Part shown: positions 24,583-46,350 of the stretch, one piece after another
Position numbering within the stretch: the stretch's first letter is position 1
Layout: the number at the start of each line of letters is the position of its first letter
DNA from: a virus
DNA: 64,000 bases
Strand: one strand, 5' to 3'
Virus record (IMG/VR): IMGVR_UViG_3300022918_000011
Span: 1-64,000 of that record
Made by a program: the position numbers and the translations under genes
The notes under the pieces: generated by a model
Databases searched by the model: none
The model's input: the letters and a program-made list of their open reading frames with translations, nothing else
Told to the model about the DNA's origin: nothing

Positions 24583-25199
24583 AGATCAAAGTCACCGAGT
24601 ACCACATCAGGGAGTTCACTATCGAGCTCCCTGATTGCTTCACCACCTACGACAAGGTGGACAAGCACACCGAGCGCCAGCGTCTCAAGTACGACGGCCC
24701 GGTGCAGGAATCAGTAAGCCAGATCGAATGGAGTCATGTTCTGGAGACCAACCGGGACGTGGCCAAGACCTTGGCTCTGTTCAAGCCGACGTTCCAGCAC
24801 ATCCCGTTCAACTTCAGCGGGTACGAGCGGGAGTGTTGGCTGCTGTACATCACTGACTGCCTCCCGGCGGGCGGCGCCTGGCTGAACTACCGGACCTGGC
24901 TCAACACCGGAGCGTTCGAGCATCACCCTGACCGGGTGGCAGAATGCTTCGAAGACGGTGACAGTGAGCGTATCTACGTTCACTTCCGGGTTGCCCCGGA
25001 GGGCGATGTGGTTGCGCTGTGGGGTGAACCTGACCGCAGGGGGCTCATCAGCAGCTATCAGCACGTCGGCCAGCACGGTGACGCATCGCCTGAACTGGTC
25101 GCTGACTGGCGGGTGGCTACGGCAGCCGAGAAGGCTGACCTGTTCAAAGAATTGGAAGGTCGCGGTTACGTGATCGTGGATAAGGAACCGAAAGCATGA
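24579..25199 (+). CDS. mosaic hypothetical protein
   Basis: GTGA overlap; C-terminal V.FR...GDV.AL...SYQH.GQH...L..ELE..GY domain. Confidence 0.75.
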   Translation: MKIKVTEYHIREFTIELPDCFTTYDKVDKHTERQRLKYDGPVQESVSQIEWSHVLETNRDVAKTLALFKPTFQHIPFNFSGYERECWLLYITDCLPAGGAWLNYRTWLNTGAFEHHPDRVAECFEDGDSERIYVHFRVAPEGDVVALWGEPDRRGLISSYQHVGQHGDASPELVADWRVATAAEKADLFKELEGRGYVIVDKEPKA

Positions 25200-25519
25200 T
25201 TTTCGACACCGGAAACACCAGCGACAAAGCCGACGTAGGCATGCTGATTTTCAGCATCACCACTTACCTGCGGGATAACCATGGTGTCGGCTGCCAGATC
25301 GTCGACACCATGCGGGTTGCCGAGGAGGCAGCGTACTGGTTGCACGAGCTGGTTCTGGTAGATGACAGCTGGGACGGCGTCGTCTGGTACGAATATCTGG
25401 AAAGCGCCAGCAAAGGATCTCTTGCACAAACGCTTTCCGGCTGTGTAGATTGCGAGGCTATCCCTGTACCTGCTGCGGTACGGCTCTGGCTTAAAATCAA
25501 CGAGATCCAAATGAAATGA
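25196..25519 (+). CDS. hypothetical protein
   Basis: TAAGGA SD; WDGVVWYE motif. Confidence 0.7.
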   Translation: MIFDTGNTSDKADVGMLIFSITTYLRDNHGVGCQIVDTMRVAEEAAYWLHELVLVDDSWDGVVWYEYLESASKGSLAQTLSGCVDCEAIPVPAAVRLWLKINEIQMK

Positions 25520-25761
25520 TTCACGTTATCTGTCGCAACGGGCAGCTTGAAATTCTCAAGCGTGAGGCGGTAAGCAGGCGTCGACGGTGGGACATCAGGG
25601 TTACATACGACACACCACTCGGTGAGCAGGTGATCCACATCAAGCCTGACAACAAATGCCGACTGCCTCAGTTAGCCAAGATAGTGTCAGACGCCATCCA
25701 CGAAGACATACGCCTTACCGGCACCGTAAATAACATTGCCTGGGAAGCCAAGGGCAGATAA
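25516..25761 (+). CDS. hypothetical protein
   Basis: ATGA overlap. Confidence 0.6.
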   Translation: MIHVICRNGQLEILKREAVSRRRRWDIRVTYDTPLGEQVIHIKPDNKCRLPQLAKIVSDAIHEDIRLTGTVNNIAWEAKGR

Positions 25762-25771
25762 GGAGTTGCAC

Positions 25772-27730: not shown

Positions 27731-28098
27731 CCAAGCCTATGAGCAAACTCCCGTCCATGCCCTTGATCAACCCCAAGGGCAAGAACAAGCCTCGCAAACC
27801 CCGCGTACCAAAGCCTGTGTGGACCGTCACCGCCGACTACTGTGACGGTGCCCTGACCGGCTACAACATGGCCTTTGAATCCGAGCGCACCGCGCGCATC
27901 ACCGCTGACTGGCTGCACTCCTCCAGCGGTACGATGAACGTCAAGATCGAAGGCCCAGGCTACAAGGGTCAGATCCACGACGCTACCGAGGCTGACCGCG
28001 AGGTTGGCTACGCGCTGGCAGAAATCCTTGAGCACCGCGCTGTAGGCCCGGTTGCGAAGTACCTCATCAACGAATGGATGGACAGCAAGGCGTGGTAA
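27727..28098 (+). CDS. hypothetical protein
   Basis: ATGA overlap. Confidence 0.7.
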   Translation: MTKPMSKLPSMPLINPKGKNKPRKPRVPKPVWTVTADYCDGALTGYNMAFESERTARITADWLHSSSGTMNVKIEGPGYKGQIHDATEADREVGYALAEILEHRAVGPVAKYLINEWMDSKAW

Positions 28099-28114
28099 CG
28101 CGCCGGGAGCTCAC

Positions 28115-28648
28115 ATGATCCTGTCAGAAAAATCGCTGCGCCCCTGGGCTTTGCCGGAAGGCTCCAAGTGTTGCGTGTGTGGTGCCGAGAACGACTCTCG
28201 GTTCTACTACGACCCGCCGGCGCGAAAGTTCTACTGCAGCAGCCACACGTTGCTGGAAGATCTGGACCCGCTGAACAAGCGCAACGCCAGCATGTTGTTC
28301 GGCTGCCCGGTCAGCCGACTGACCGTGTTCCCCGAGCTGGAGAACATCCGCGACCTGCTGGTGCCGATCACGGCGCCCAAGCGGGGCGAGCCGAACTTCT
28401 ACTGCCGCAGCGATATGTTCCCCAACCTGCGGGTCATGCCGACGCCGGCGTTGACAGCCTGGGTGTACAACAACATGTTGTATCCCCGGCTGACGCCGGA
28501 CAAATACTTCTTCGACCTGCACATCCGTGAGTACGGCGGTGTGGATCTGGCGTGGTTGTCCCTCCGGTACCAAGAAATTCTCGGCACTCGCTACCTCGCG
28601 GTGGTGACCCGAGCCAACGTTGAAAAGATCTTTGGAGCAGTAAAATGA
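28115..28648 (+). CDS. hypothetical protein with N-terminal zinc finger
   Basis: CCVCG...YCSSH. Confidence 0.7.
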   Translation: MILSEKSLRPWALPEGSKCCVCGAENDSRFYYDPPARKFYCSSHTLLEDLDPLNKRNASMLFGCPVSRLTVFPELENIRDLLVPITAPKRGEPNFYCRSDMFPNLRVMPTPALTAWVYNNMLYPRLTPDKYFFDLHIREYGGVDLAWLSLRYQEILGTRYLAVVTRANVEKIFGAVK

Positions 28649-29076
28649 CAGACGTAGTTCAGGTCCGCACGAAGGACGGTATCAAAGAAATCCCTTGCCT
28701 GGGTCGCTGGAAGAAGACCATTGACGGCGAAGAGTTTGAGTTCGCTCTGCATGTCGCGCCGACCAAACTCGTCGGGCAGCGCCCGCTGTTGTTCAGCGAA
28801 GTGTCCACCGGGCACAGCGCCCAGATCGCGGTACGTCACCCGTCAATCCACTCGCTGCTGACCGAAGCCCACCTGCGCCAAGGTCATGAGCACTACTGCA
28901 CCGCGCGAAAAGTGAACCGCGCGGCAGCAGCTGCGCTGCACAACGGCATCAAGTCTATGGACGGCGAGTCGTTCCGCGCAGCTGTGGGTGTTGCGCTGAT
29001 GGCCATCGCCAACAAGGAACGCGCTAATGTCCTTGAGAACGGTGCCAAGCCCGCAGTTGTAGAGGAGAAGGTCTGA
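28645..29076 (+). CDS. hypothetical protein
   Basis: GGAG SD; FALH...SEVSTG motif. Confidence 0.75.
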   Translation: MTDVVQVRTKDGIKEIPCLGRWKKTIDGEEFEFALHVAPTKLVGQRPLLFSEVSTGHSAQIAVRHPSIHSLLTEAHLRQGHEHYCTARKVNRAAAAALHNGIKSMDGESFRAAVGVALMAIANKERANVLENGAKPAVVEEKV

Positions 29077-29387
29077 TGCAGGTCATCTTCAACGGTCAGA
29101 TCCTGAGCCAGGCACACCTCGACCTGCTGGTCCCGCTGCTCAACGAAGGCATGAGCGAGAAGAAACTTCGCAAGTGCATGGGGGAGGTCTTCGAAGCTGC
29201 GGGCATCCCGGTGCCGCAGCTGAAGATCGGCGACCTGGTGCATTGGCAGGGACTGGAGGAGCGCATGGACAAGGGCGTGATCCTCGGCATCGAGAGCCGC
29301 GGCGACAAGCTGCGTGTTCAATCCAAACAGCGTGGCCGTGCGGTCACAATCGGTCAGCGCGATGCGCGGGTGGTGGCAGATGCCTAA
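29076..29387 (+). CDS. hypothetical protein with KOW/SH3-like C-terminus
   Basis: LKIGDLV.W...G.I.GI. Confidence 0.7.
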   Translation: MQVIFNGQILSQAHLDLLVPLLNEGMSEKKLRKCMGEVFEAAGIPVPQLKIGDLVHWQGLEERMDKGVILGIESRGDKLRVQSKQRGRAVTIGQRDARVVADA

Positions 29388-29709
29388 GTCGGTTATTACC
29401 AGCATCACCTTCTCCTCGGCACCGGCGCGGCGCAAGCCGCAAGCCGGCGACCTGAAGACCCTGAAGAGGGACGGCAAGACCTACATCCGGCAGCAACAAC
29501 GCTGCTACCACGGCCCAGGCCGCGGCGCCATGGTGGTCAGCAACGGCCGCCCGGTATGGGAGTGGGTTGAACAGGGCAGCTCGCAAGACCGTGTCGCTGT
29601 TTACGCGAAGCAGCTGGCCTGCCCACACGAAACGTGGCTGGGTCACAGCGGTACCGGCCGGATCTTCTGTGCAGCCTGCAACAAGGAGCGCACCGATGCT
29701 GAAGCTTGA
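29380..29709 (+). CDS. hypothetical protein
   Basis: IRQQQ...GA..VSNGRPVWEWV motif. Confidence 0.7.
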   Translation: MPKSVITSITFSSAPARRKPQAGDLKTLKRDGKTYIRQQQRCYHGPGRGAMVVSNGRPVWEWVEQGSSQDRVAVYAKQLACPHETWLGHSGTGRIFCAACNKERTDAEA

Positions 29710-30100
29710 GCAAGTAAAAGCCCTCGTCGCCGAGGGCGTCGGGGTCTTCCGGATCCTTAGCACCTATCCGGTGCGGGAGCAGGACGGGGTTCTCCGCTGG
29801 GGCCACCTCGACGACAAGGTGTTGACCGATGTCGACACCAAGTATTTCCGAGAGGCGGATTACGAGGTGGCAGCCGCTACCAATAACCCCCCTGCACTCT
29901 TCCGCAGCGTAGGCGACCCCCGCATGTTCGCTAACGGTTGCTACGTGGTGAAGTTCGGAGGCAAAGGCATCTGGACTACCTACGTCATCGTTCGCTACGC
30001 CCATCCCATCGACGCAGGTCAAGCCACTGAGATGGCCATCGATCACCTGGTTCAGGCCGGGTGGACCGAAGTCGAAGCCCAACCACTGCTCGTTATCTGA
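29696..30100 (+). CDS. hypothetical protein
   Basis: AAGGAG SD. Confidence 0.7.
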   Translation: MLKLEQVKALVAEGVGVFRILSTYPVREQDGVLRWGHLDDKVLTDVDTKYFREADYEVAAATNNPPALFRSVGDPRMFANGCYVVKFGGKGIWTTYVIVRYAHPIDAGQATEMAIDHLVQAGWTEVEAQPLLVI

Positions 30101-30108
30101 GGTGAATC

Positions 30109-30495
30109 ATGACCACGCTTTCCAGCCTCATCGGCATCATCGGCAACGACAAGATCAAATTCCAGACGCTGGACGCCAGCATCTCTGGGTTCAATAACCC
30201 CAGGAGCGGCGGCTCGCGCATCACTTTTGATACTGAAAGCCCCTGCGGTGTGGGACCTGGCATGACGCCCCGCACCGAAAGTATGGGCCTGATCCTCTGG
30301 CTGGACCGGGAGGAGGTGGCGAGGATCAACGCGCTGCCTCGTGGAGACGAGCTCGGGGCGCACGTCGACGAGCTGCGAACCCTGCGCGCTGCCTTACAGG
30401 ACTGTATCAAGGCCGGTGCATCGATCCCGCTGCTCAGCGTTAGCCAGATGCAAGACCATCTGGATAGCCTGGACGTGTTCTTCGAGGACGAATGA
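30109..30495 (+). CDS. hypothetical protein
   Basis: GAGGTG SD. Confidence 0.75.
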   Translation: MTTLSSLIGIIGNDKIKFQTLDASISGFNNPRSGGSRITFDTESPCGVGPGMTPRTESMGLILWLDREEVARINALPRGDELGAHVDELRTLRAALQDCIKAGASIPLLSVSQMQDHLDSLDVFFEDE

Positions 30496-30677
30496 TGGCG
30501 ACAGTCAAGAAGCTGCGCCGTATGGACGGCGGATGGCGGGTGCATTGGCTGACAGCAACGGGCTGGGTGTTGGGCAAAAAGCTCGCCACCCGGCAGCTGG
30601 CCACTGATTACGCCAAGACGTACATGCGCCGAAGCGCTGAGTTCGAGGACTTCAAGGTCCTCCCCGCAGAAAGGTAG
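30492..30677 (+). CDS. hypothetical protein
   Basis: ATGA overlap. Confidence 0.65.
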   Translation: MMATVKKLRRMDGGWRVHWLTATGWVLGKKLATRQLATDYAKTYMRRSAEFEDFKVLPAER

Positions 30678-30682
30678 TTGCC

Positions 30683-31081
30683 GTGGACATCACAGCGTTG
30701 ATACAGGCTGCACACCCGGAGATGTCCGGGCCGCTGGACGACCTGCTGGACAGGAAACAGAGGCTCGCGATGGACAAGGTCAAGGTTCAGTTCGCAGCAG
30801 ACCAGATGGTAACGCTGCAGCAACTGATCCGCCTGGCAAAGCAGGACGACCTGCCCTCGTTGAAACTGAGCGAGGCAGCGTTGGCTATGCTGATGGAGAA
30901 GTTGACCATCCGCTGCCGCGCTGACGCCATCGAGCAGATCAGCCGGAACATGGGCCGTCCGCTGAGTCTGGTACCGCACTTCGTATGGGCGGTTGACCTG
31001 CACTTCTACCCCAAGCGGGTAGCGGTGCCGAGGTCGCCGAAAGCAATCACCAACATTCGAAAGGACATTCAAAGTGCCTGA
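30683..31081 (+). CDS. hypothetical protein
   Basis: Fills operon gap. Confidence 0.7.
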   Translation: MDITALIQAAHPEMSGPLDDLLDRKQRLAMDKVKVQFAADQMVTLQQLIRLAKQDDLPSLKLSEAALAMLMEKLTIRCRADAIEQISRNMGRPLSLVPHFVWAVDLHFYPKRVAVPRSPKAITNIRKDIQSA

Positions 31082-31514
31082 TGATAAAGACAACAAGACG
31101 CCAACCGGTCGCATTACCGATCCGCGCGCTGCGTTCGCTCTGCCGTATGGCAAGAGCCTGAACGGCATCGGCAAGGTCTATGTAAACGCGGACTTCTCCG
31201 CGATTGAGGAGCGTATCGCGGAGGGACTGATGGGTGCAGCCGCTGGCAGCAACCTGCTGGACCCCTACAAGATCATCGCAGCGGTGACCCACATCGTCAT
31301 GTACAGCGAGGTGACCAAAGAGCAGCGTCAGTGGGCCAAGAGTTACTTCTACCTGAACTTGTACTCCACGGAAGGCTTCAGCCTGCCGCCGCGCGTCCAA
31401 CTGTTCGCCATCTACACGACCGAGGAGATCGTGCAGATTCAAATCGATACGAAGTGGCCAGGCACCCTGGACCTCTACGATCACATCGCCAACTTTTACA
31501 AGCCGAAGGTATAA
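31074..31514 (+). CDS. miniature family-A DNA polymerase fragment (TGR, motif A, motif B; no motif C)
   Basis: TPTGR...RAAF...ADFSAIEERIA...DPY...VTKEQRQWAKSYFYLNLYS; AAGGA SD. Confidence 0.8.
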   Translation: MPDDKDNKTPTGRITDPRAAFALPYGKSLNGIGKVYVNADFSAIEERIAEGLMGAAAGSNLLDPYKIIAAVTHIVMYSEVTKEQRQWAKSYFYLNLYSTEGFSLPPRVQLFAIYTTEEIVQIQIDTKWPGTLDLYDHIANFYKPKV

Positions 31515-31516
31515 CC

Positions 31517-32293
31517 ATGCAGTTGAACAAGAAGCTCAAAGAAGAAATCATCCTCAAGCTGGTCGGCAAGGCCACCAAGAAGCACGCTCAGGCCATGAGT
31601 AAGGCAGCGGCATCGCTGAACCTGCTGTGGCGCCAGGCGGTGATCAAGCACGCCCAGCAAGCCATCCCGGAGCTGCCGCAGGAACGGTGGGCAGACTTGA
31701 TCCAGTCGCAGACCTTCAAGGGTTTCGGCAGCCTGTCTGTGAGCACGGTAGCGCCCGCGCCACTGAAGGGTCAGGACAACCGCACGGTCACCAACGACAT
31801 TGGCGACGCTGGTCGGCGCATCCAGTGGGAGCGGGCCGCCACTGAGAAGTATCAGTCGATCAAGGTCACGATGGCTGACAACGGTTGGAGCGGGTTCTTC
31901 AGCGTGTGCGGCGTTATGTGCCGGGACCATTTCCTGAACGTCGGCTGGCCGCTGCCCTTCCATGACCTGCCTGCGTTTAGCTGGATGTCGGTAGTCGACC
32001 TCACCGGCAAGTCTACAGGTCCGGCAGCGGCCTGGTCTCTGGACACCGCACCGCTGGCAGAACAGGCAAACGCCCTGACCGCCAAGTTCCAGAAGGTGCT
32101 GGTGGAAGCCGCCGAGTTCTACGACTCCCTGCAGATCATCATGGCGTCGATCAACACCGATACCCAGTTGATCGATCAGTTCCCCGAGGCTGCCAAGTTC
32201 CTGCCGGAGCAAGCGCCGAAACGCAATCAGCTAGCACCTACTGAACTGATTGCCAAAGCCCGCCAGATGCTTGAGACAGGCATCCCTAACTGA
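31517..32293 (+). CDS. Nmad5-family protein
   Basis: M.LNK.LKE.I... N-terminus and T..QLI..FPEA..FLP C-terminus. Confidence 0.7.
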   Translation: MQLNKKLKEEIILKLVGKATKKHAQAMSKAAASLNLLWRQAVIKHAQQAIPELPQERWADLIQSQTFKGFGSLSVSTVAPAPLKGQDNRTVTNDIGDAGRRIQWERAATEKYQSIKVTMADNGWSGFFSVCGVMCRDHFLNVGWPLPFHDLPAFSWMSVVDLTGKSTGPAAAWSLDTAPLAEQANALTAKFQKVLVEAAEFYDSLQIIMASINTDTQLIDQFPEAAKFLPEQAPKRNQLAPTELIAKARQMLETGIPN

Positions 32294-32303
32294 GTAGTAC
32301 CCA

Positions 32304-32621
32304 ATGCAAAAGCTACGAGCCCAACTGCGACTCATCTCCACCGAAAGGGGTGACTACGGTACACCCGAGGATCGAGGGCTGTTCATCGACAACTTCGTTG
32401 ACGCCCTCGAAGAACTGCTCACGCCAAGAGCCATCGCCACGTTCACTGCGGACGAGATCCGCCATGTGCTGCTGGCCTACGCTCAGGAGAACCTGAACTC
32501 ACCCACCCCGATCACCATCGAACAGAGCATCATGTCCCGGTTCGCTGTCTTGTTCTTCAACAGCCCGCGTCGCGAGGTTGTCCTGCCGTTGCCACCGAGC
32601 AACGTTGTAAGCCTGCATTAA
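32304..32621 (+). CDS. hypothetical protein
   Basis: Last ORF of early block. Confidence 0.7.
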   Translation: MQKLRAQLRLISTERGDYGTPEDRGLFIDNFVDALEELLTPRAIATFTADEIRHVLLAYAQENLNSPTPITIEQSIMSRFAVLFFNSPRREVVLPLPPSNVVSLH

Positions 32622-32630
32622 CACTTCCGC

Positions 32631-32666
32631 TTGACCGCATGGCGGCCACCCCATAGGATGGCCGCC
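32631..32666 (+). promoter_or_regulatory. sigma70 promoter of replication operon overlapped by a GC-rich inverted repeat
   Basis: TTGACC (32631-32636), 17 bp, TAGGAT (32654-32659); GGCGGCCA/TGGCCGCC arms. Confidence 0.65.
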
Positions 32667-32699
32667 TGTATAAACTGTATAACATTATAAGGTGACCAC

Positions 32700-34037
32700 A
32701 TGGGACTCAATGTTGGTCAACAGGCAGCTGTTGACGAAACTCTGCATGAGATCTTTGAAGGTGAGTACAGCCCGAACCAAGGGCATACGATCATCGGCGA
32801 AGGCGGTACTGGCAAGACGTTTTGTGTGACAGAGATCGCTCGTGTGGTGATCGAGGCAGGGCACAGCGTGCTGTTCGCAGCGCCCACCCACAAAGCCCTC
32901 AAGCAAATTCAGCGGTCGTGCCGTGAGAACGGTTTGATCAGCAACAACATCGGCTTCGCCACCATCTACAGCGCCCTGGGCCTGGGGATGATGCCGGCGG
33001 ATGAAGACAAGTTCATCACCCCGTTCAAGGAAAGCATCATCGGGAACTACGACGTTCTGGTCGTGGACGAGATCTCGATGATGCCCAAGCTGCTAGTCGA
33101 ACGTTACCTGCTGCCAGAGCTGGAGCAAACCGGCACCTACCCGCTGTTCATGGGTGACGACATGCAGCTGCCGCCGGTCAAGGAAGCAAAGGCTGTGGCC
33201 TTTGACCTGTTCAAGACCTCGGAGCTGACAGAGAACCAGCGGCAGCTGACCAACGAGGACGGCACGCCGAACGGCATCCTGCAGCTGGCCCGCGCCATCC
33301 GCCCTTGCATCAAGGAGAAGCGCGTCTTCCGGTTCGACTTCACCGTCGAGAACAACGTGACGTGCGTGAAGGACAAGGACTTCCTGTCCACCATCCTCGA
33401 CCACTTCACCCTCGACACCGATCTGGAACAGACCCGGGTACTTGCCTGGCGCAACTTCCGGGTCGATGACCTGAACCGCGCGATCCGCAAGAAGGTGTAC
33501 GGCCCCGACGCCGCTCGCTTTGAGATCGGCGAGCGGGTCATCACCGGCGGCTCGATCAAGGACGCGAACGACGAGGTCGTGTTGACCAGTGCCGAAGAGT
33601 GCATCGTCATGGCCGAGCGTGAAAGCCAGCTGGTCTACCGCGCCACGAACGAGCCGTGGAAGACCCGCCTGCTGACGCTGCGCCCGTGCTACGCCGGACA
33701 GAAGCAAGTCTTCGCCCATGTGCTGCACGAGGACGAAAAGGAACGCTACAACAACGTGATGGGCAAGCTGAAGAAGAAAGCGCTGGATGCCGTGGGCAAT
33801 GAGCGCGGCCTTTACTGGCGCCGGTTCCACGAGTTCCGCGATGCGTTCGCTGACATCCGCTACTGTTTCTGCATGACCACTCACCTCGCGCAGGGCAGCA
33901 CTTACGACACGGTGTTCGTCGATGTGAAGGACATTCTCGAGAACCCGCAGCCGATGGAGCGGCGCAAGCTGATCTACGTTGGCTTCAGCCGGCCTCGCAA
34001 GGAGCTGGTTATCAACAAAACTAGCTTCATCGCTTGA
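32700..34037 (+). CDS. SF1B helicase (Dda/RecD-like)
   Basis: GEGGTGKT, APTHKA, VVDEISM, GDDMQLPPV, TTHLAQGSTY, YVGFSR. Confidence 0.93.
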   Translation: MGLNVGQQAAVDETLHEIFEGEYSPNQGHTIIGEGGTGKTFCVTEIARVVIEAGHSVLFAAPTHKALKQIQRSCRENGLISNNIGFATIYSALGLGMMPADEDKFITPFKESIIGNYDVLVVDEISMMPKLLVERYLLPELEQTGTYPLFMGDDMQLPPVKEAKAVAFDLFKTSELTENQRQLTNEDGTPNGILQLARAIRPCIKEKRVFRFDFTVENNVTCVKDKDFLSTILDHFTLDTDLEQTRVLAWRNFRVDDLNRAIRKKVYGPDAARFEIGERVITGGSIKDANDEVVLTSAEECIVMAERESQLVYRATNEPWKTRLLTLRPCYAGQKQVFAHVLHEDEKERYNNVMGKLKKKALDAVGNERGLYWRRFHEFRDAFADIRYCFCMTTHLAQGSTYDTVFVDVKDILENPQPMERRKLIYVGFSRPRKELVINKTSFIA

Positions 34038-34120
34038 TCGTTGTATGCTGTGATCATTCTCACTGACTTTACACAGGCGCCTCTGGCGCCTCAAAAGTCG
34101 TGCCAAGCCAGGAGTAACAA

Positions 34121-34366
34121 ATGGAACTCGCCAAGCCAGAAGACACGCCGTCTCCTATGCAGATTGACTACGCGCTGATCGCTCGTAAATACAACACTGC
34201 GGAGCAAGGCGGCTCGGTAAAGATGAAGAAGGTGTACAACATCACCTTGTTCAAGAAGGCCCTATCGCGCCGGGGAGTCCGAGAGAGCATCGACTTTCAG
34301 GCATTCAACCAAGACGGTTTCACCTACGTCAAACGGATCTCCGCGCTGCGCATGACTGAGGTGTAG
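34121..34366 (+). CDS. small basic hypothetical protein
   Basis: AGGAG SD; hairpin 34065-34099 in leader. Confidence 0.75.
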   Translation: MELAKPEDTPSPMQIDYALIARKYNTAEQGGSVKMKKVYNITLFKKALSRRGVRESIDFQAFNQDGFTYVKRISALRMTEV

Positions 34367-34368
34367 GT

Positions 34369-37230
34369 ATGATTTCTTACCTTCAGTTTAAGCCCGACAA
34401 GTCGGACAGGTGGAAGCCCTACACCGATGAGCAGCTGGCTAACAACAAGCTGCCATCGGCCCCGACCTTCCAAACCGTGCTGACGCTGGACCAGGACCCT
34501 GAAGCGCTGGCTGAGCAGGGCATCGACCCGGCCCAGACGGTCAAGTACCTGGGTCCAATGTATCTGGACTTCGACGATGCTAACGACATCGACCGAGTGC
34601 TGGATGAAGTGCGCGCTGTACTGGATTTTCTGATCCACAAGCTGGACATCCCGGAACACTACATCAACTGCTGGTTGTCCGGCGGCAAGGGTGTGCATAT
34701 CACCATTGCTCAGGAACTGTTTGGCGTTAAGTCAGCCACAAAGTTCCTCCCGCTGATCTACCGCGAGATCATGCTGACCATTCAGGAAGGCGCTGGCCTG
34801 CCGCGTGACAGCTCTATCGACGACAGCGTGTACAGCCTCGGCCGTGGCCGGATGTGGCGCTGCGAAGGCATACCTCGGCCAGGCAAGGGCACCTACAAGG
34901 TGGCCACCAGCCCGGACGAGCTGGCCCACATGGACGGCGAGCAGTACCAGATCTTGGTAGCTGCTGCCCGCCCAAACCTGCAGGTCAAGACACCAGGCAA
35001 AGAGATGGTGTCGATGAAGGCCGCGGAGCTGTTCAAGAAGGCCAAGGTCACCGCTGCCAAGCGTGTGCGGGCCATGTCCGAAGCCGTCACCATCCCCAAA
35101 GAAGCACTGCGTCTCTGGGAAGGCGTGCCTGGCTGCATCGAACTGCTGATCACCGAGGGTGATCAGGCTGGGTCCAACTGGAATCAGGCAGCCATGCAGC
35201 TGGCCTCCTACATCGCTGCTCGTTACGAGCGGTCTGAGGAAGCCGAGTACACAACTGACCTGATCGATCCCTTCGTCAAGAATGTCCAGAGCAGCAGCCG
35301 CAGCAGTGAGGCCGAGCGCCGCAAGCACGTCAAGGAACAGCTGAACCGGACCTTCCGGGGCAACTTCAAGCTGTCACCTGGTGCAATCATCGCGGTCATC
35401 GGCGGCAAGTGTGGCAACTGCCCCATCTGCCGCGCTGACATTGCCAGTGGCGACACGGAGCAGAGCGAAGACGGCGACGGGAAGTTTCACCACGCCACCA
35501 AGATCGCCTGGGATGCAGACGGTTACTGGAAAGTGGGTGAGACAGGCCGCCGACAGCTGACAGCGTTCACCTTCTGGGCCACCTGCGAAGTCTTCCAGGC
35601 TACCGAGGGCAACCGCGAAGGGCCGCGTCTTGAGCTGCAGGGCTTCATCATCGACGACGCTGGACACAAGTTCGAAGAGAACATCAGCGAGAACGCCTGG
35701 GGTTCCAAGAAGGAGTTTCTGGCAGCGTTCAAGGGGCTGGGCGAGGCGCAGACATACTGCGGTGACGCGGATCTGCAGTACCTGCTCAAGGCAATCATGT
35801 ACTTCTCTCGGCATGCAGCCGAGGACAAGGAGTTAGATAAAATGACCCGCAGCACTACCTGTGGGGTCGTTCTGGACCAGAAGGGTGGCAAGATCGTCCC
35901 TCACTACATCGAGGCAGACGGTGCTATTACCAACGTCGGGCGCAGCCATTACAAGTTCGACGGCCAGCCTGACCAGTCTCCTGACCTGCTCAGTATCCAG
36001 ACCCCTGTTGCAAACGACACCGAGCTGGAAGTGGCGATCACATCGCTCTGCCAGATCAACGAGCCGGTCGCCGTGGCGCTGACCATGGGTTGGATGGTGG
36101 CCTGCCACTATCGCCAGCACATTCAGTTCGAGGAGCCGCAGTTTCCGCTGCTCAACCTCAACGGTAACGCTGGCAGCGGCAAGACCTCGATGGCCGTGCT
36201 GATGTGCATGCTCAACGGGATTGATTACGGCAAGGTGCCGTACATGAACGTCGAGGTGGGCACCATGTGGCCACTGATCCGCTACATCACCTCGACCACC
36301 ACCATCCCCCGGCTGGTGGAAGAGGTCAACCCGCTGACCTGCGGCAACAACTACGCCCGTGTCGTCGGCTTGTTCAAGGCTTCATGGAACAAGGCGCCGG
36401 TGTCCCGCGGCATGCTACGAGACCGAGAGATGTCGGTCAACGATGACCGGGTCCAGGCCCCCATCGTCTTCACCAGCGAGCAAACGTCGACCAGCCCAGC
36501 CATCCGTGACCGGACAGTTGAAGTGACGCTCAAGGGTAAGACCCGCACCAACCCCAAGTACAAAGAGCATTACCAGAAGGCCATGGCCAGACGGCAGTCT
36601 CTGCTCGGGTTGGCCAAGGCGCTGCTGACGGTGTCGATGCACACTCACCCGAAGAAGCTGATGGAGATCTTCCGCAGCAAGGACAAGCTGATCAAGGAAC
36701 AGATCGCCGATCGGCCCCGCTGGAGCTACCAGACCTGCCTGACAGGGCTGCACATGCTGGCCCACACCATGCGGGAGTTCAAGATCAAGGGTGTCGAGGA
36801 AGTCGAGAAGCTGGAAGCGGCACTGGTCGCCTACCTGGGCGGCGTTGTTGTCGACGAGAGCCGCAGCAAGTCAGCGTCTGAAGTCGGCAAGGTGTTGGAA
36901 GTGCTCAACACGCTGGCTGATGACACCGCTGAGCCTCGCGATGCGTTGGTGGCTGGCAAGCATTACTGGCTGCAGGGTGACAGCCTGTACCTGGTAGCGC
37001 AGTCCTGCCATCCAAACTACCTGCGGTATATGCGCAGCATCGGTGAGCCGGCGGTCATTCGCCAGCTGGACCAGCTGACGAGGCTGCTCAGTGGTGAGGT
37101 CTACCATGTCCGCACCGAGCCGCACCCAGCCAAGAAGGCCGAAGTATTCGTTATCAGCCTGGAAAAGGCTGCCGAGTACGGGGCCTACCTCAACAACTTT
37201 AAAGAAAGCGATTTCGACGGGAGAGAGTGA
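34369..37230 (+). CDS. AEP-type primase fused to P-loop helicase
   Basis: YLDFD, SGGKGVH (AEP motifs), CGNCPIC, GNAGSGKT. Confidence 0.85.
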   Translation: MISYLQFKPDKSDRWKPYTDEQLANNKLPSAPTFQTVLTLDQDPEALAEQGIDPAQTVKYLGPMYLDFDDANDIDRVLDEVRAVLDFLIHKLDIPEHYINCWLSGGKGVHITIAQELFGVKSATKFLPLIYREIMLTIQEGAGLPRDSSIDDSVYSLGRGRMWRCEGIPRPGKGTYKVATSPDELAHMDGEQYQILVAAARPNLQVKTPGKEMVSMKAAELFKKAKVTAAKRVRAMSEAVTIPKEALRLWEGVPGCIELLITEGDQAGSNWNQAAMQLASYIAARYERSEEAEYTTDLIDPFVKNVQSSSRSSEAERRKHVKEQLNRTFRGNFKLSPGAIIAVIGGKCGNCPICRADIASGDTEQSEDGDGKFHHATKIAWDADGYWKVGETGRRQLTAFTFWATCEVFQATEGNREGPRLELQGFIIDDAGHKFEENISENAWGSKKEFLAAFKGLGEAQTYCGDADLQYLLKAIMYFSRHAAEDKELDKMTRSTTCGVVLDQKGGKIVPHYIEADGAITNVGRSHYKFDGQPDQSPDLLSIQTPVANDTELEVAITSLCQINEPVAVALTMGWMVACHYRQHIQFEEPQFPLLNLNGNAGSGKTSMAVLMCMLNGIDYGKVPYMNVEVGTMWPLIRYITSTTTIPRLVEEVNPLTCGNNYARVVGLFKASWNKAPVSRGMLRDREMSVNDDRVQAPIVFTSEQTSTSPAIRDRTVEVTLKGKTRTNPKYKEHYQKAMARRQSLLGLAKALLTVSMHTHPKKLMEIFRSKDKLIKEQIADRPRWSYQTCLTGLHMLAHTMREFKIKGVEEVEKLEAALVAYLGGVVVDESRSKSASEVGKVLEVLNTLADDTAEPRDALVAGKHYWLQGDSLYLVAQSCHPNYLRYMRSIGEPAVIRQLDQLTRLLSGEVYHVRTEPHPAKKAEVFVISLEKAAEYGAYLNNFKESDFDGRE

Positions 37231-37469
37231 TGCAAGTTGACATGACAGAGGTGTGCGCTGACCCCGTGGACCGAGCCAGCCTGGAGGAGCAGCGCAACCT
37301 GCAGCTCAACATCCAGGCAGCGTTGGCCAAGACGGTCAAGGCCCTGCCCTACATCGGGCAGTGCTACAACTGTGACGAACTCCTCCCGCCAGGCAACCGG
37401 TTCTGCGATGCAGACTGCCGGGACGATCACCAGAAGCGTGAACGCAGCCGATCAGTGCGAGGGGTGTAG
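37227..37469 (+). CDS. DksA/TraR-like zinc-finger protein
   Basis: DPVDRA tip motif, CYNC...FCDADC. Confidence 0.75.
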   Translation: MMQVDMTEVCADPVDRASLEEQRNLQLNIQAALAKTVKALPYIGQCYNCDELLPPGNRFCDADCRDDHQKRERSRSVRGV

Positions 37470-37471
37470 TC

Positions 37472-42663: not shown

Positions 42664-45600
42664 ATGCATTACCACATCCTCGACTTCAAAGCGGTCGCCA
42701 AGCACTCGTACTACGGTGCCAGCGACCCTGAAGCAATCCATTGTGAAGTGAAGGACCGCCGCTTTGCCCATTGGCAGGTCGGCGCCGCTGGGCTGCTCAG
42801 CCGTTACTTCCAGGCCGTACTGGATGCCGGGGATAGCCCTCGACAGCTGCTGGTTGCCCACGACATGGGCCAAGAGTTCCGCCAAGGCATCTTCCCAGAC
42901 TACAAGGGGCAGAAGTCCAAGAAGACCGAGAACAAAAGCCCGGTCGAGATGGAACAGATCGAGGGCCTGTACAACTGGTCGAAGCAGTTCTTCACCGCCG
43001 TCGGCGCCACGCAGATCGGCGTCAAGGGCGTCGAAGCGGATGACGTGATTGCCTGGGTTGCCCAGAAAGTTACGGCAGCGGGCGGTACGCTAACCATCTA
43101 CACCGTCGACTTCGACTTGGCAGCGTTGGCCTCAGACGCTGTCAGCATTGTCACCCCCAAGGGCGTATTCCACGGCGACGACGGTGTCTTCGATCTGGAA
43201 AGCGACAACGACCTGAACGGGTTCCCGTACCACCTGGCCAGCTTCTGCAAATCCATCCTCGGTGATGCCTCCGACAACTACGGCGGCGTGAAGGGGATGG
43301 GCAAGGTTGCCCTGCGCAACATGCAGAAGGCTTTCGGCGATGACGGCCTGCTGGAACTGCAGAAGGTCGTGGACACCGGCAACACCGACATCCTCAACGA
43401 GGTGATCGCTGACACTGGCAGCAAGGAACTGAAGAAGCTGCTGGAAAACTTCACCGACTGGAAGCTGGGCTGGCGCCTGGCACAGCTGCGGCCTGAGTTG
43501 TGCTGGAAACCCCGCAAGAACAAGCTGGTCAAGCCCATCGTCTACAAGCGCGTGCCGAACCCAGGCAAGCTGCTTGAGCTGCTGACCGAGATCGACCACC
43601 AAGACCGCTGGGACGACACGTTCGCTGAACTGATGCCCAACCCGTTCGCTGTTGATGCAGCGAACTGGGGCGAGATGCGTGAAGCAATCCTCAGCGAGCT
43701 CACCGCCGGTGACCTGATGGCCTTCGACTATGAGTCCTCTGACAAAGAGCCAATCCGGGAATTCCGGATGGCTTCTGGTGCCGGTGAGGACTTTGTCGAT
43801 ACGCTCAGCCAGGAGCTGGCTGGTGCATCGTTCCAGTTCGGCAAGCATCTGGAGAACGTCATCTACATCCCGCTGGATCACCGCGACGCGATGAACCTGA
43901 ACCGGGAAGTGGTGCTGGAGATCCTGAAGCACGCCAAGGCCAAGGGCATCCGCCGGGTGGCACACAACGCCTTCTTCGAGGGTGTGGTGACCTACACCAA
44001 CCTCGGCGAGTGGCTGACCGACGTGGAAGATACCCGGATCATGCAGCGGTTCTTTGACGAGAACAGCAGCGCTGGTCTGAAGTCCATGTCAGCTGACTAT
44101 CTGGGCTTCGATCAGGTCTCGTTCAAGGAGACGTTGGCGAAGGGCTCCATCCGGGAGGGTGGCGCCACGATGATGTGCGAGCTGACCCTGGACGAGGTGT
44201 TCACCTACGGTACCGACGACAGCTTGGTAACCGGCCATCTGGCTGACCTGATGCAGCTGCAACTGATCCTTGATGGGCAGTGGCTGTTCTATCAGGAATA
44301 CGCGGTGAAGCCGACTGAGGTCCTGCAGCGTGCCTACGTTGAAGGCGTGAAGATGAACTGGGCTCTGCAGAAACGTCTGCACCAGCGAGATCTGAAGGCC
44401 ATTGAGGAAGGCATGATCGAACTGCGGGCCATCCTGAAGAAGAACGTCACCGGCAACCAGACGGCAGGCGCTGCCTCGCTCATCGCTGCCGAGAAGGACT
44501 ACGTCTACAAGTCAGCGCTGAAAAAGTACGACGACAAGGAAATGGCGTCAACCAAGCTCCACGAATGGAAGCGCGCGGTCGAAGCAGCTTGCCAGTACAC
44601 ACCGTACCGCGAAGAACTGGTCATGCCGGCCTTCGCTTTCACGGCCAAGCAGGTATCGGCGGCTGCCAAGGCCGTTGGGCTGCCAGAGCTGGAGAAGTTG
44701 AACTACAAAGCCTGGGCTGACTACATGGTGCAGGTCGGCGCCGAGGGTTTCGAGGAAGACTGGGGGCTCACAGAGCCGCAGCTGGAACTCGTCAAGACGG
44801 TGGCCAAGGCCATGGAGTTGGGCTGCATCAGCATCTCCAACATGCGCAAGCTGGTGGAAGCTGAGCAGGAACAAGGGCAGGAGGCTGCCGACGGCGGCCC
44901 TACCGAGAAGGCTCAACGGCTTGAAGCTGCTGAAGCCTACTGGGATGTGCTGGGCGAGGCTATCCAACGCATGGCGGGTGTCGAGGCTCGGACAGTTGCC
45001 TTCGGTGACCCACTGAACGTTGGCAGCCCGGTGCAGATGCAGCGTCTGCTGTACTGCAAGATCGGGGTGCCGGTGCGGTTGTTCGGGAAGATCAGCAAAG
45101 GGCGTCTGCAACTGGGCATCCGGGTCGCTGGTCCATCCACGGATGAGAAAGCAGTCGAGACGGCACTGGCCAACGACATCACAGCGGATGGCTGGGAGCG
45201 CGAAGCTCTGGCCGTGCTGCTCAAGGTCAAGTCAGCGACGACCCGATGCAGCCTGTACCACGACAAGTGGCCACTGTGGCTGCACCGCGATGGCAAGGTC
45301 CACCCTTACGTCACCGATTACGGTACCGACACCGGCCGGCCAACAGCCAGCTCGATGAACGTGCTGCAGGTGTCGAAGAAGGACAAGATCATGCGGTCCT
45401 GCTTCATCCCGCCGAGTCAGGACTACGTTTGTGTGGCCATCGACTTCAACGGCCAAGAGATCCGGTTGATGGCGAACCTTGCCAACGACCCGGTGCTGCT
45501 GTCGGTGTACGAGCCAGGCAACGAGAAGGATCTGCACAGCATGACCGGTGCGGGTATCGCGAAGCTCTCCTACGATCAGTTCACACTGATCCGGGAAGAT

Positions 45601-46350
45601 GTGAAGCACCCCGACAACAAGAAGATCAAAAACATCCGGGACAAGAAGGCCAAGCCTTTGAACTTCGGTATGGCCTACGGCGCTGGTCCAGGCACGCTGG
45701 CTCGCAACATGGTTGCCCCGGTCGAGGAAGCGAAGCAGCTCCTCGAAGACACCATGAACCTCTACTACCGGATTCGTCCGTGGCAGGAAGAGAGTGCTGC
45801 GTTCATGGACAAGCATGGCTACACGCTGACGGCCTACGGCAACAAGCGTCACGCCAGCAACGACCTGTTCTCCACTGACAAGGGCAAGGTGTCCCGTCAG
45901 CATCGTCAGGGTACCAACTTCGAGATCCAGGGCTCGGCAGCTGACATGCTGCGGATCGCACTGACCAACGTGTCGAAGTCCGGGATGATGGATCGGCTGC
46001 GGTTTGTTTTCTTCGCACCGATCTATGACGAAGTGGTTTCGTGGGTCCACAAGGACGACGTCTACGACTACTGCCTGGAGATGGGCGCAATCCTTGAAGC
46101 CACCACACCTCCTGGCCACATTGTTCGGCAGGTGCCGGAGTATTCAATCGGTTGCGACTGGGGTAACGTACATGAACTGGGCCGCGACATCAGCCCAGAG
46201 AACGTGGCCAAGTACGTCAAGCTCTCGCTGGAAGACAGCAAGCCAATCTGGGCAGAGGATGTGCTTGAGCCTTTCGATCCTATCCTGAAACGTGTTCTGG
46301 TCGAGTTGGCCGAGGACGAGGAGGCTGAAGTTGAAGTCATGCCTTACTGA
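42664..46350 (+). CDS. polA: family-A DNA polymerase with 5'-3' and 3'-5' exonuclease domains
   Basis: YK, EADDVI, GDASDN.GG..G.G; FDYES, AHNAFFE, YGTDD; TDTGR, DFNGQEIR, KPLNFGMAYG, YDE. Confidence 0.95.
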   Translation: MHYHILDFKAVAKHSYYGASDPEAIHCEVKDRRFAHWQVGAAGLLSRYFQAVLDAGDSPRQLLVAHDMGQEFRQGIFPDYKGQKSKKTENKSPVEMEQIEGLYNWSKQFFTAVGATQIGVKGVEADDVIAWVAQKVTAAGGTLTIYTVDFDLAALASDAVSIVTPKGVFHGDDGVFDLESDNDLNGFPYHLASFCKSILGDASDNYGGVKGMGKVALRNMQKAFGDDGLLELQKVVDTGNTDILNEVIADTGSKELKKLLENFTDWKLGWRLAQLRPELCWKPRKNKLVKPIVYKRVPNPGKLLELLTEIDHQDRWDDTFAELMPNPFAVDAANWGEMREAILSELTAGDLMAFDYESSDKEPIREFRMASGAGEDFVDTLSQELAGASFQFGKHLENVIYIPLDHRDAMNLNREVVLEILKHAKAKGIRRVAHNAFFEGVVTYTNLGEWLTDVEDTRIMQRFFDENSSAGLKSMSADYLGFDQVSFKETLAKGSIREGGATMMCELTLDEVFTYGTDDSLVTGHLADLMQLQLILDGQWLFYQEYAVKPTEVLQRAYVEGVKMNWALQKRLHQRDLKAIEEGMIELRAILKKNVTGNQTAGAASLIAAEKDYVYKSALKKYDDKEMASTKLHEWKRAVEAACQYTPYREELVMPAFAFTAKQVSAAAKAVGLPELEKLNYKAWADYMVQVGAEGFEEDWGLTEPQLELVKTVAKAMELGCISISNMRKLVEAEQEQGQEAADGGPTEKAQRLEAAEAYWDVLGEAIQRMAGVEARTVAFGDPLNVGSPVQMQRLLYCKIGVPVRLFGKISKGRLQLGIRVAGPSTDEKAVETALANDITADGWEREALAVLLKVKSATTRCSLYHDKWPLWLHRDGKVHPYVTDYGTDTGRPTASSMNVLQVSKKDKIMRSCFIPPSQDYVCVAIDFNGQEIRLMANLANDPVLLSVYEPGNEKDLHSMTGAGIAKLSYDQFTLIREDVKHPDNKKIKNIRDKKAKPLNFGMAYGAGPGTLARNMVAPVEEAKQLLEDTMNLYYRIRPWQEESAAFMDKHGYTLTAYGNKRHASNDLFSTDKGKVSRQHRQGTNFEIQGSAADMLRIALTNVSKSGMMDRLRFVFFAPIYDEVVSWVHKDDVYDYCLEMGAILEATTPPGHIVRQVPEYSIGCDWGNVHELGRDISPENVAKYVKLSLEDSKPIWAEDVLEPFDPILKRVLVELAEDEEAEVEVMPY

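What the first reader, a model, noticed from the sequence alone, without database searches (positions are those of the whole stretch)
31074..31514. 146-aa mini-PolA with motifs A and B in order but compressed, from a different clade than the resident polymerase
Seen: TPTGR, RAAF, ADFSAIEERIA and VTKEQRQWAKSYFYLNLYS. The last aligns with E. coli QRRSAKAINFGLIYG, keeping R, K, the aromatic at 762 and Y766. The first catalytic Asp is kept; motif C is absent and the linkers are shortened. The resident enzyme has DFNGQEIR, so this is not a recent self-duplication; ADFSAIE resembles SPO2-type phage PolA as I recall it. Internal compression is hard to explain by a single truncation.
Basis: partly seen in the sequence, partly recalled or inferred. 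Interest (0 to 1): 0.75.

Follow-up and report, generated by a model that had tools for sequence, protein, structure and literature searches.

The report
Stand-alone polymerase-fingers mini-protein in phage
This phage carries a small, conserved gene that is a cut-out piece of a Pol I-type DNA polymerase (the nucleotide-gripping part only); it cannot copy DNA, sits beside the replication genes in addition to a complete polymerase of another type, and its job is untested.

Summary
The ORF at 31074-31514 (+) and all four motif strings are real. It is homologous to family A DNA polymerase. Alone it scores below Pfam's cut-off (E 2e-4, 20.9 vs 34.3 bits). A profile of its 14-member family hits Klenow at E 1.7e-9 and a bacterial Pol I at hhalign E 2.7e-9.

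It is not compressed. Motif A to motif B is 4 residues shorter than in Klenow, and pairwise alignments run on collinearly to residue 136. It reads as one continuous internal excerpt of a Pol I-type enzyme. Motif C, thumb and most of the palm are absent, so it is non-catalytic.

It is unrelated to the resident 1228-aa PolA beyond family level. The SPO2-type marker is not met. The gene is kept at the same syntenic place in 5 of 5 related phage genomes, each of which also has a full PolA. These include Pseudomonas phages Lana and PMBT3.

The O-helix R/K/aromatic/Y positions are nearly invariant in 18 members. I favour a ligand-binding (nucleotide) accessory role; this is inferred.

I found no paper describing it. 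This scan's earlier AI notes report similar "fingertip" mini-proteins in at least 8 other genomes.

The parts
31074..31514 (+). mini-PolA gene, 146 aa, GTG start that overlaps the stop of the upstream gene
   Evidence: Homologues of 93-155 aa. Same syntenic place in Lana, PMBT3, L003 and L004.
31074..31178 (+). residues 1-35: N-terminal extension carrying TPTGR (31098-31112). Possibly a vestige of the PolA T-x-TGR motif; predicted disordered.
   Evidence: Present in only 4 of 18 members (T/S-G-R). pLDDT <50 over residues 1-37. No HMM alignment reaches it. R-to-motif-A spacing is 27 here versus 37 in P0019 and P0021.
31179..31376 (+). residues 36-101: segment homologous to PolA from the motif A strand (DFSAIEER, 31191-31214) through the fingers helices to the O helix / motif B (31323-31364)
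   Evidence: Conservation: Y97 18/18, Q84 18/18, R85 17/18, K89 17/18, aromatic at 93 in 17/17, D40 in 13 of 15.
31377..31511 (+). residues 102-146: family-specific C-terminal helical cap (three short helices). It is the best-conserved part among the close relatives.
   Evidence: pLDDT 90-97. A C-terminal HMM finds nothing at the expected place in 11 PolAs. Two pairwise alignments do continue collinearly into a bacterial Pol I. It does not superpose on PolA structures.
30683..31081 (+). upstream 132-aa gene of unknown function, translationally coupled (8-base overlap)
   Evidence: No Pfam or PHROG family. A homologue stands upstream in L003.
31517..32293 (+). downstream 258-aa Nmad5-domain gene; its start lies 2 bases after the mini gene's stop
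   Evidence: PF18757 E 5.5e-7. phrog_15487 E 1.2e-31. Present next to the mini gene in 3 of 4 relatives and absent from G001.
42664..46350 (+). resident full-length PolA (5'-3' exo, 3'-5' exo, pol), 1228 aa, with motifs A, B and C

Best explanation
What it is (about 0.9 sure). It is a genuine, maintained phage gene. Its product is one continuous internal excerpt of a Pol I-type family A DNA polymerase. The excerpt runs from the motif A strand through the fingers helices to the O helix (motif B). A possible T-x-TGR vestige precedes it, and about 45 family-specific helical residues follow it. Motif C, the thumb and most of the palm are missing, so it cannot polymerise. It coexists with a complete PolA of a distant lineage. 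It probably began as a leftover of a displaced or captured polymerase gene that was then put to new use; that origin is inferred.

How it works (inferred, about 0.35-0.4). The residues held fixed across the family are those that, in PolA, line the incoming-nucleotide site. This assignment is recalled from the Klenow/Taq literature: O-helix Arg, Lys, aromatic and Tyr; the helix N Asp and His; motif A Asp and Glu. I therefore read it as a small ligand-binding module. The ligand is most likely a nucleoside triphosphate, either a dNTP or a modified or analogue nucleotide. It would act as an accessory in the early replication/nucleotide-metabolism operon.

Shown: homology, lack of catalytic parts, conservation pattern, synteny. 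Not shown: expression, any binding, any phenotype.
For: Homology.

Non-catalytic: only profile positions 151-230 of 381 are covered, and no other PolA piece lies in the 82.7-kb record at E<=10. The motif A Asp is replaced in 2 of the 15 members that have the region.

Maintained: 12 small proteins (93-155 aa) lie among the 15 hits at E<=0.001 in 1.84 billion representatives. Two more, at 55-56% identity and 148 aa, came. The ORF is intact at the same syntenic place in 5 of 5 phage genomes, and each of these also has a full PolA. Median pairwise identity is 34%, yet A70, V80, Q84 and Y97 are invariant and L61, L62, D63, R85 and K89 are each kept in 17 of 18. The N-terminus is conserved at protein level with P0002 and P0003.

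Folds as a domain: residues 39-146 give mean pLDDT 86.2 and pTM 0.75. The best BFVD match is the PMBT3 homologue (E 6.9e-4, TM 0.66).

Operon context: tight coupling on both sides, inside a methylase ... Dda-type helicase ... primase-like ... SNF2 helicase cluster.
Against: There is no evidence of expression or of binding. Without motif C and the palm, the nucleotide pocket is incomplete.

The models superpose on PolA only weakly. The best Z values are 3.0-3.2 over 55-63 residues with rmsd 3.5-5.0. Foldseek found no match at E<=0.001 in PDB. The motif A part is modelled with low confidence.

A fixed O-helix face could equally be a protein-protein surface or a structural core. One member (P0008) has lost the Lys and has Lys in place of the Arg. 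Family pI ranges from 5.2 to 9.2, so there is no common charge signature. dN/dS was uninformative because synonymous sites are saturated.
Confidence: 0.4

Rival explanations
1. Decoy or mimic. The protein imitates the conserved fingers surface of a Pol I-type polymerase, the host's or a phage's. It would titrate something that recognises that surface, such as a host defence sensor, a polymerase inhibitor or a Pol I partner.
For: The family profile is closer to bacterial Pol I (Klenow E 1.7e-9; P0021 E 2.7e-9) than to the phage's own PolA (E 0.013). The conserved positions lie at i, i+4, i+8 and i+12, one face of helix O. It is an early-region small gene. Earlier AI notes of this scan raise the same idea for similar genes; these are leads only.
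Against: No defence system known to me senses PolA fingers; that statement is recall. PADLOC gave 0 families for this gene and three neighbours. Identity to any Pol I is only about 30%. The predicted packing differs from the fingers in a whole polymerase.
Confidence: 0.2
2. Partner of the Nmad5-domain neighbour. The two translationally coupled products would act together in a nucleotide or DNA-base modification step, with the mini protein supplying nucleotide recognition.
For: The mini gene is immediately followed by the Nmad5-like gene in the window, Lana, PMBT3 and L004, that is 4 of 5 genomes. Nmad5 genes sit in the thymidine-hypermodification cassette of M6-like phages (PMC9476957, passage read). 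A C5-methylase lies in the same cluster.
Against: G001 is a 100%-complete record with terminal repeats. It keeps the mini gene but has no Nmad5-like gene at E<=0.01. The function of Nmad5 is itself unknown. No modification is reported for Lana or PMBT3: word searches found 0 occurrences of 'modification' and 'methyl' in PMC8421299 and 0 of 'methyl' in PMC7368026.
Confidence: 0.15
3. Accessory or regulator of the resident replisome. It would bind the phage PolA, the primase-like protein or a helicase.
For: It co-occurs with the same resident-type PolA in 5 of 5 genomes and lies inside the replication gene cluster.
Against: No evidence of contact. The resident PolA has complete motifs of its own.
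Confidence: 0.1
4. Functionless remnant: a decaying piece of a displaced polymerase gene that is still open by chance.
For: Polymerase genes are swapped among tailed phages (PMC11348598, abstract and passages read). dN/dS estimates of 0.42-1.2 do not show purifying selection. The N-terminal part is lost in most members.
Against: The ORF is intact, of similar length and at the same place in 5 of 5 genomes that have diverged to 27-33% identity with the window's copy. Specific positions are invariant. The gene is coupled on both sides. The domain is modelled with confidence. The dN/dS values come from saturated sites.
Confidence: 0.08
5. A minimal active nucleotidyl transferase or polymerase.
For: The motif A Asp and Glu and the motif B residues are present in this copy.
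Against: There is no motif C, thumb or palm sheet. The motif A Asp is not invariant (13 of 15). The model is all-helical.
Confidence: 0.02

Closest known systems
Fingers subdomain plus motif A strand of bacterial-type DNA polymerase I (Klenow fragment, chain 1d9d_A positions 377-447; Bst and Taq large fragments)
   Same: Sequence homology from motif A to the end of the O helix, with one 4-residue gap. It has the same order of helices and the same Arg, Lys, aromatic and Tyr spacing. The four best VIA rows are PolAs.
   Different: It is a free-standing protein of 146 aa. It lacks motif C, the thumb, the palm sheet and the exonuclease. It has a C-terminal cap with no detectable PolA match. The predicted packing superposes poorly (Z about 3).
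Uncharacterised proteins of Pseudomonas phage PMBT3 (AUM59663.1 / A0A2I6PHY7, 120 aa) and Lana (gp58, QBJ04516.1, 126 aa)
   Same: Same family and same place in the genome. The model matches the PMBT3 BFVD model at E 6.9e-4 and TM 0.66.
   Different: They share 32-33% identity with the window's copy. They lack the 35-residue N-terminal extension with TPTGR. Both are annotated only as hypothetical.
About 60-aa phage proteins that match the model weakly. An example is the 'DNA polymerase family A palm domain-containing protein' of Pectobacterium phage CX5 (A0A5P8D3M6, 60 aa). This scan's notes also describe 'fingertip' mini-proteins.
   Same: They are small stand-alone phage proteins resembling the helix N-O part. 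BFVD rows 2, 5, 9 and 11 have probabilities of 0.38-0.90 but E values of 0.3-2.5. Notes from at least 8 other genomes describe similar genes.
   Different: They are much shorter and have no motif A and no C-terminal cap. I did not test their kinship with this family at sequence level.
Split T7-like PolA (separate exo and pol genes, S-SBP1 type) described in PMC10201439 (passages read)
   Same: A PolA coding region ends up as a shorter separate gene.
   Different: There the two halves together rebuild an active enzyme. Here the fragment has no complementing pieces anywhere in the genome, and a complete PolA is present.

Membership tests
Family A DNA polymerase (Pfam PF00476), as an enzyme | Whole-protein score over Pfam's curated cut-off | tested here: not met
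   20.9 bits against a cut-off of 34.3. 18.2 bits in the six-frame search.
Family A DNA polymerase (Pfam PF00476), as an enzyme | Motif A (Asp ... Glu on the palm strand) | tested here: met
   D40 and E45 lie in DFSAIEER and align to the Klenow motif A. In the family, Asp is present in 13 of 15 members and Glu in 14 of 16.
Family A DNA polymerase (Pfam PF00476), as an enzyme | Motif B (O helix: Arg, Lys, aromatic, Tyr at i, +4, +8, +12) | tested here: met
   R85, K89, Y93 and Y97. In the family: 17/18, 17/18, 17/17 and 18/18.
Family A DNA polymerase (Pfam PF00476), as an enzyme | Motif C (second catalytic Asp on a beta hairpin) | tested here: not met
   The profile is covered only at positions 151-230 of 381. 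The only candidate, D125, is Asp in 12 of 18 members and lies in a predicted helix.
Family A DNA polymerase (Pfam PF00476), as an enzyme | Thumb and complete palm | tested here: not met
   The protein has 146 aa and the model is all-helical. No other PolA piece lies in the record at E<=10.
SPO2-like PolA subfamily (cluster named in PMC10201439) | Leu at motif B position 'B3'. I take this to be the position aligned with Y93; that equation is my inference. | tested here: not met
   The position is F in 10, Y in 6, W in 1 and L in 0 of 17 members. The phage PolAs BcepNY3 and Thiohalocapsa MD04 do have Leu there.
SPO2-like PolA subfamily (cluster named in PMC10201439) | Closest sequence relatives are SPO2-type polymerases | tested here: inconclusive
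   No SPO2 sequence was at hand. The window protein hit 7 phage records, none from Bacillus. Member P0007 hits many Bacillus phage PolAs at 30-35% identity. About 65 alignable residues cannot place a donor clade.
Resident-type PolA of this phage group (recent duplicate) | Detectable similarity to the resident enzyme above family level | tested here: not met
   hhalign probability 3.3, E 0.013. Core HMM <=4.1 bits on the five resident-type PolAs (P0018 plus those of four related genomes); the PMBT3 copy (L008) gave no reported hit. BLASTP finds nothing at the homologous place.
Lana/PMBT3 mini-PolA family (defined here) | 93-155 aa; LLD-x-H ... V-T-x-x-Q-R-x-x-A-K ... Y core followed by the I-Y-T ... 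L-Y cap; syntenic upstream of the Dda-type helicase | tested here: met
   Synteny.

The most novel reading that the evidence does not exclude
Polymerase-fingers mini-proteins, including this family, are a widespread and undescribed class of phage counter-defence or takeover factors. In this reading a non-catalytic copy of the Pol I nucleotide-binding face does one of two things. It may sequester a nucleotide, such as a chain-terminating or signalling nucleotide made by host immunity, or it may buffer dNTPs against depletion. Or it may act as a decoy for a host factor that recognises polymerase fingers. That would make a replication-enzyme fragment a new type of sponge or decoy.
Probability: 0.15. 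Interest if true: 0.8.

Novelty: new variant of a known kind. Interest (0 to 1): 0.55.

Why it matters
Family A polymerases are among the best-studied enzymes. Even so, surveys of the family discard short sequences; PMC10201439 removed everything under 350 aa (passage read). A conserved, non-catalytic, free-standing version of the nucleotide-binding fingers would therefore have been missed.

If it binds nucleotides or mimics a polymerase surface, it is a new way for phages to reuse a replication-enzyme fragment. It would also be a compact natural O-helix domain for biochemistry. Two cultured phages, Lana and PMBT3, carry homologues, so the question can be tested at the bench now.

If instead it proves dispensable, it records how a displaced polymerase gene decays. 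It also corrects database labels in this gene cluster.

Tried and rejected
Complex prediction of the mini protein with the Nmad5-like neighbour gave no verdict (score 0.00, mark 0.32). It counts neither way.

Sequencing runs: no RNA holder is listed. The one full holder is a leaf-litter metagenome that may be the source sample.

dN/dS (Nei-Gojobori, 10 pairs) gave pS 0.46-0.64 and w 0.42-1.2. The sites are saturated, so it is uninformative.

Is the C-terminal part PolA helices P/Q? An HMM of the columns after Y97 found nothing at the expected place in 11 PolAs. Two pairwise phmmer alignments (window protein and P0002 against P0019) do run on collinearly to the Y-P-G-V region. I leave this as suggestive only.

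'QIQID' as motif C is rejected.

Fold searches. Foldseek against PDB gave no match at E<=0.001 for either model; the top rows are PolAs at E 0.7-5 with rmsd 9-13. VIA-wide gave a best Z of 3.0-3.2.

Family and collection searches:
- PHROGs: only a glycosyltransferase at E 0.16.
- PADLOC: 0 families.
- Megablast of 28000-36000 against phages: no match.
- Metagenome contigs: 0 relatives with A3, and 1 with A4, on an 84,020-bp contig that I take (not checked) to be the same phage as L004.
- Genome contigs with A4: 0 relatives.
- Further viral-contig scans with A4 returned the same two contigs.
- Viral-contig scans with P0017 and P0005 returned none.
- The 'longer' protein search with A1 gave only 4 ordinary full-length PolAs among 8000 scored candidates and no fused form.
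- Three large NHL-repeat proteins (P0009, P0014, P0015) were dropped as repeat artefacts after I read them.

The promoter/terminator scan of 25000-38000 was at shuffle level.

Literature. Searches were 'Nmad5', 'aGPT-Pplase/Nmad', 'PMBT3 + Pseudomonas phage', 'family A DNA polymerase + fingers domain + phage + truncated' and 'O-helix + phage + stand-alone + polymerase' (0 papers). None returned a paper describing such a protein. The PMBT3 and Lana papers contain the word 'polymerase' 0 times. Supplementary files were not opened.

ESM Atlas: the nearest clusters are short PolA-domain proteins of 175, 203 and 176 aa at score 0.90, which is a lead only.
Full report
OBSERVATION. The window encodes an ORF at 31074..31514 on the + strand (GTG start, 146 aa). 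Its start overlaps the stop of the upstream ORF 30683..31081 by 8 bases. Its TAA stop (31512-31514) lies 2 bases before the ATG (31517) of the next gene. The resident polymerase at 42664..46350 (1228 aa) has a 5'-3' exonuclease, a 3'-5' exonuclease and a polymerase domain (PF00476, E 2.5e-47). It does read DFNGQEIR at motif A.

IS IT PolA, BEYOND CHANCE? The protein alone gives a sub-threshold Pfam DNA_pol_A hit: E 2e-4, 20.9 bits against a cut-off of 34.3, residues 33-108 on profile positions 151-230 of 381. The case becomes firm with relatives.
- Word-indexed search: two 148-aa proteins at 55-56% identity.
- Exhaustive phmmer over 1.84 billion representatives: 15 hits at E<=0.001. Twelve are small proteins of 93-155 aa, including the query itself. 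Three are large NHL-repeat proteins that I dropped as artefacts after reading them.
- A profile of 14 members (A1) matches 65 distinct PDB sequences at E<=0.01. All 60 shown are family A polymerases. The best is Klenow at E 1.7e-9, with profile positions 4-70 on chain positions 377-447 and a single 4-residue gap.
- hhalign to a bacterial Pol I (P0021) gives probability 96.2 and E 2.7e-9 over 65 columns, with mini residues 37-101 on 703-771.

WHAT PIECE OF PolA, AND IS IT COMPRESSED? The homologous block runs from the motif A strand to the end of the O helix. Its length is within 4 residues of Klenow's. Two pairwise phmmer alignments, the window protein and P0002 against the bacterial Pol I P0019, continue collinearly to mini residue 136 and 139 respectively. 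The window alignment spans 100 mini residues (37-136) against 102 Pol I residues (674-775).

That C-terminal continuation is only suggestive. An HMM of the columns after Y97 found nothing at the expected place in 11 PolAs. The predicted C-terminal helices also do not superpose on PolA structures.

Upstream, TPTGR stands 27 residues before the motif A Asp, and 30 in P0002 and P0003. Two bacterial Pol I have T-G-R 37 residues before it, and the resident enzyme has it 35 before. If the motif is a true vestige, that linker is 7-10 residues short. But no HMM alignment reaches it, only 4 of 18 members have it, and it is modelled as disordered.

So the protein is best described as one continuous internal excerpt of a Pol I-type enzyme, cut at both ends, with small indels. 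It is not a compressed polymerase.

Motif C is absent. The only acidic candidate, D125, is Asp in 12 of 18 members and sits in a predicted helix. A six-frame PF00476 search of the whole 82,688-bp virus record at E<=10 finds only the resident gene and this ORF. That rules out a frameshifted motif C downstream, and likewise a thumb upstream.

RELATION TO THE RESIDENT ENZYME AND TO OTHER CLADES. The core HMM (motif A to O helix) scores 33-44 bits on six Pol I-like PolAs. These are four from the protein library plus the PolAs of Burkholderia phage BcepNY3 and Thiohalocapsa phage MD04. It scores at most 4.1 bits on the five resident-type PolAs: four gave weak hits, and the PMBT3 copy gave no reported hit. 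hhalign to the resident enzyme gives E 0.013 and probability 3.3. BLASTP finds nothing at the homologous place. The gene is therefore not a recent copy of the resident polymerase.

A donor clade cannot be named from about 65 alignable residues. PMC10201439 (passages read) gives Leu at motif B position 'B3' as typical of SPO2-like and KPP25-like PolAs. At the position I take to be B3, the family has F in 10, Y in 6, W in 1 and L in 0 of 17 members.

A MAINTAINED GENE FAMILY. tblastn against 50,697 phage records finds small-protein homologues only in Pseudomonas phages Lana (gp58, 126 aa) and PMBT3 (120 aa). Every other listed hit is a real polymerase. One search returned 7 records. One search returned 251 records, of which 60 were listed and 191 were not seen.

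IMG/VR adds two uncultured phages, L003 and L004. In the window and all four relatives the mini gene sits at the same place. The order is cytosine methylase, a run of small genes, the mini gene, usually an Nmad5-domain gene, a small gene, a Dda/RecD-type helicase, a primase-like protein of about 950 aa, and an SNF2 helicase. Each of the 5 genomes has exactly two PF00476 matches: a full-length PolA of 1227-1337 aa open frame, and the mini gene.

Across 18 members the median pairwise identity is 34%. Even so, A70, V80, Q84 and Y97 are invariant. L61, L62, D63, R85 and K89 are each kept in 17 of 18. The position aligned with Y93 is aromatic in 17 of 17, and position 65 is His or Tyr in 17 of 18. 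The motif A Asp is kept in 13 of the 15 members that have the region. Three members start after motif A, so that part is dispensable.

dN/dS could not add to this because synonymous sites are saturated. Scans of metagenome contigs and of 185,579 species genomes gave no further relatives, apart from one hit on an 84,020-bp contig that I take (not checked) to be the same phage as L004. As far as these tools see, the family is rare and phage-borne.

STRUCTURE. With the family alignment, residues 39-146 fold with mean pLDDT 86.2 and pTM 0.75 into six helices. In the full-length model residues 1-37 are below pLDDT 50.

In PDB no match reaches Foldseek E<=0.001. The top rows are nevertheless mostly PolAs, at E 0.7-5 and rmsd 9-13 A. 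The four best VIA-align rows for the domain model are PolAs. They have Z 3.0-2.7, 55-63 aligned residues and rmsd 3.5-5.0, and cover only the first two thirds of the domain. I read this as local retention of the L/N/O helices, with a different overall packing closed by the family-specific cap. The low Z values carry little weight on their own.

In the viral library the model matches the PMBT3 homologue (E 6.9e-4, TM 0.66). It also matches several 59-66-aa phage proteins weakly, one of them named a PolA-domain protein.

HOW IT MOST LIKELY WORKS. Shown:
- It cannot be a polymerase.
- It is kept.
- What is kept most strictly is one face of helix O, at positions i, +4, +8 and +12, together with the helix N Asp/His and the motif A acidic residues.

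From what I recall of the Klenow and Taq literature, these are the residues that hold the incoming dNTP's triphosphate and base. My inference, at about 0.35-0.4, is that the protein is a small nucleotide-binding accessory of the early replication/nucleotide-metabolism operon.

The rivals are set out in their own section with odds. They are a decoy or mimic of a Pol I-type surface, a partner of the Nmad5-domain neighbour, a replisome accessory, a functionless remnant and a minimal enzyme. The Nmad5 link is weakened by G001. That record is complete, with terminal repeats; it keeps the mini gene but has no Nmad5-like gene. There the mini reading frame continues from a 118-codon upstream part with no Pfam family. 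An internal ATG preceded by GAGGAG could also start a 119-aa product.

As to origin, polymerase genes are exchanged among tailed phages (PMC11348598, abstract and passages read). A leftover of a displaced Pol I-type gene that was then co-opted is a reasonable history, but it is untested.

COMPARISON AND NOVELTY. It works like, and derives from, the PolA fingers. It is not a member of the enzyme family in the functional sense: motif C, thumb, palm and the Pfam cut-off were all tested and not met.

I found no paper describing such proteins. The broad PolA reclassification discarded sequences under 350 aa. The Lana and PMBT3 papers do not mention a polymerase at all.

Within this scan, earlier AI notes report comparable stand-alone 'fingertip' mini-proteins of 61-197 aa in at least 8 other genomes. 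I did not verify them beyond the weak BFVD rows. They are leads, and they lessen the surprise within this project but not in print.

VERDICT. This is a new variant of a known kind: a conserved, non-catalytic, free-standing PolA motif A-plus-fingers protein of unknown role. It is testable in two cultured phages. Interest 0.55.

Noticed in passing
window 31517-32293; L002 8372-9175; L001 8438-9241: The Nmad5-domain neighbour is labelled 'DNA polymerase A' or 'DNA polymerase' in the PMBT3 record, in RefSeq copies of Lana, PMBT3, phiR18 and KPP25, and in phrog_15487. Yet six-frame PF00476 searches find no PolA similarity in it. This is probably a label that spread from one annotation, perhaps meant for the adjacent mini gene.
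   Followed up: partly
L003 5617-6330: In this complete relative the mini reading frame is continuous with a 118-codon upstream part that has no Pfam family. An internal ATG at 5971 is preceded by GAGGAG. So it is either a fusion protein or an unstopped in-frame neighbour. This genome also lacks the Nmad5-like gene.
   Followed up: partly
window 14722-15177: A 151-aa ORF noted by the first stage as a helicase fragment. BLASTP to the phage's own Dda-type helicase (32700-34037) gives 29% identity over 51 residues at pairwise E 0.001, across the Walker B to motif III region. It has no Pfam family. It may be a second replication-enzyme fragment gene in the same phage.
   Followed up: partly
P0002/P0003 residues 7-23 versus the C-terminal end of resident-type PolAs (P0018 1147-1161; L007, L011 and L012 about 881-901): The N-terminus of the two closest homologues shares 8 of 17 residues with the extreme C-terminal region of the resident-type polymerases. 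The HMMER scores are negative (E 5-9). It is probably chance, but it recurs in four related PolAs and competes with the T-x-TGR reading of the N-terminus.
   Followed up: no
window 34369-37230: A 953-aa protein with no Pfam family matches PHROG 'primase' phrog_16345 at E 6.8e-59. PMBT3 annotates its homologue as 'RNA polymerase-binding transcription factor'.
   Followed up: no
window 25736-27730: A 664-aa protein with a C5 cytosine methylase domain heads the same co-directional cluster. Lana and PMBT3 have large methylases at the same place. Together with Nmad5, this hints at DNA modification in this phage group.
   Followed up: no
window 30600-32700: The only run holding the whole stretch is a leaf-litter metagenome, possibly the source sample.
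   Followed up: no
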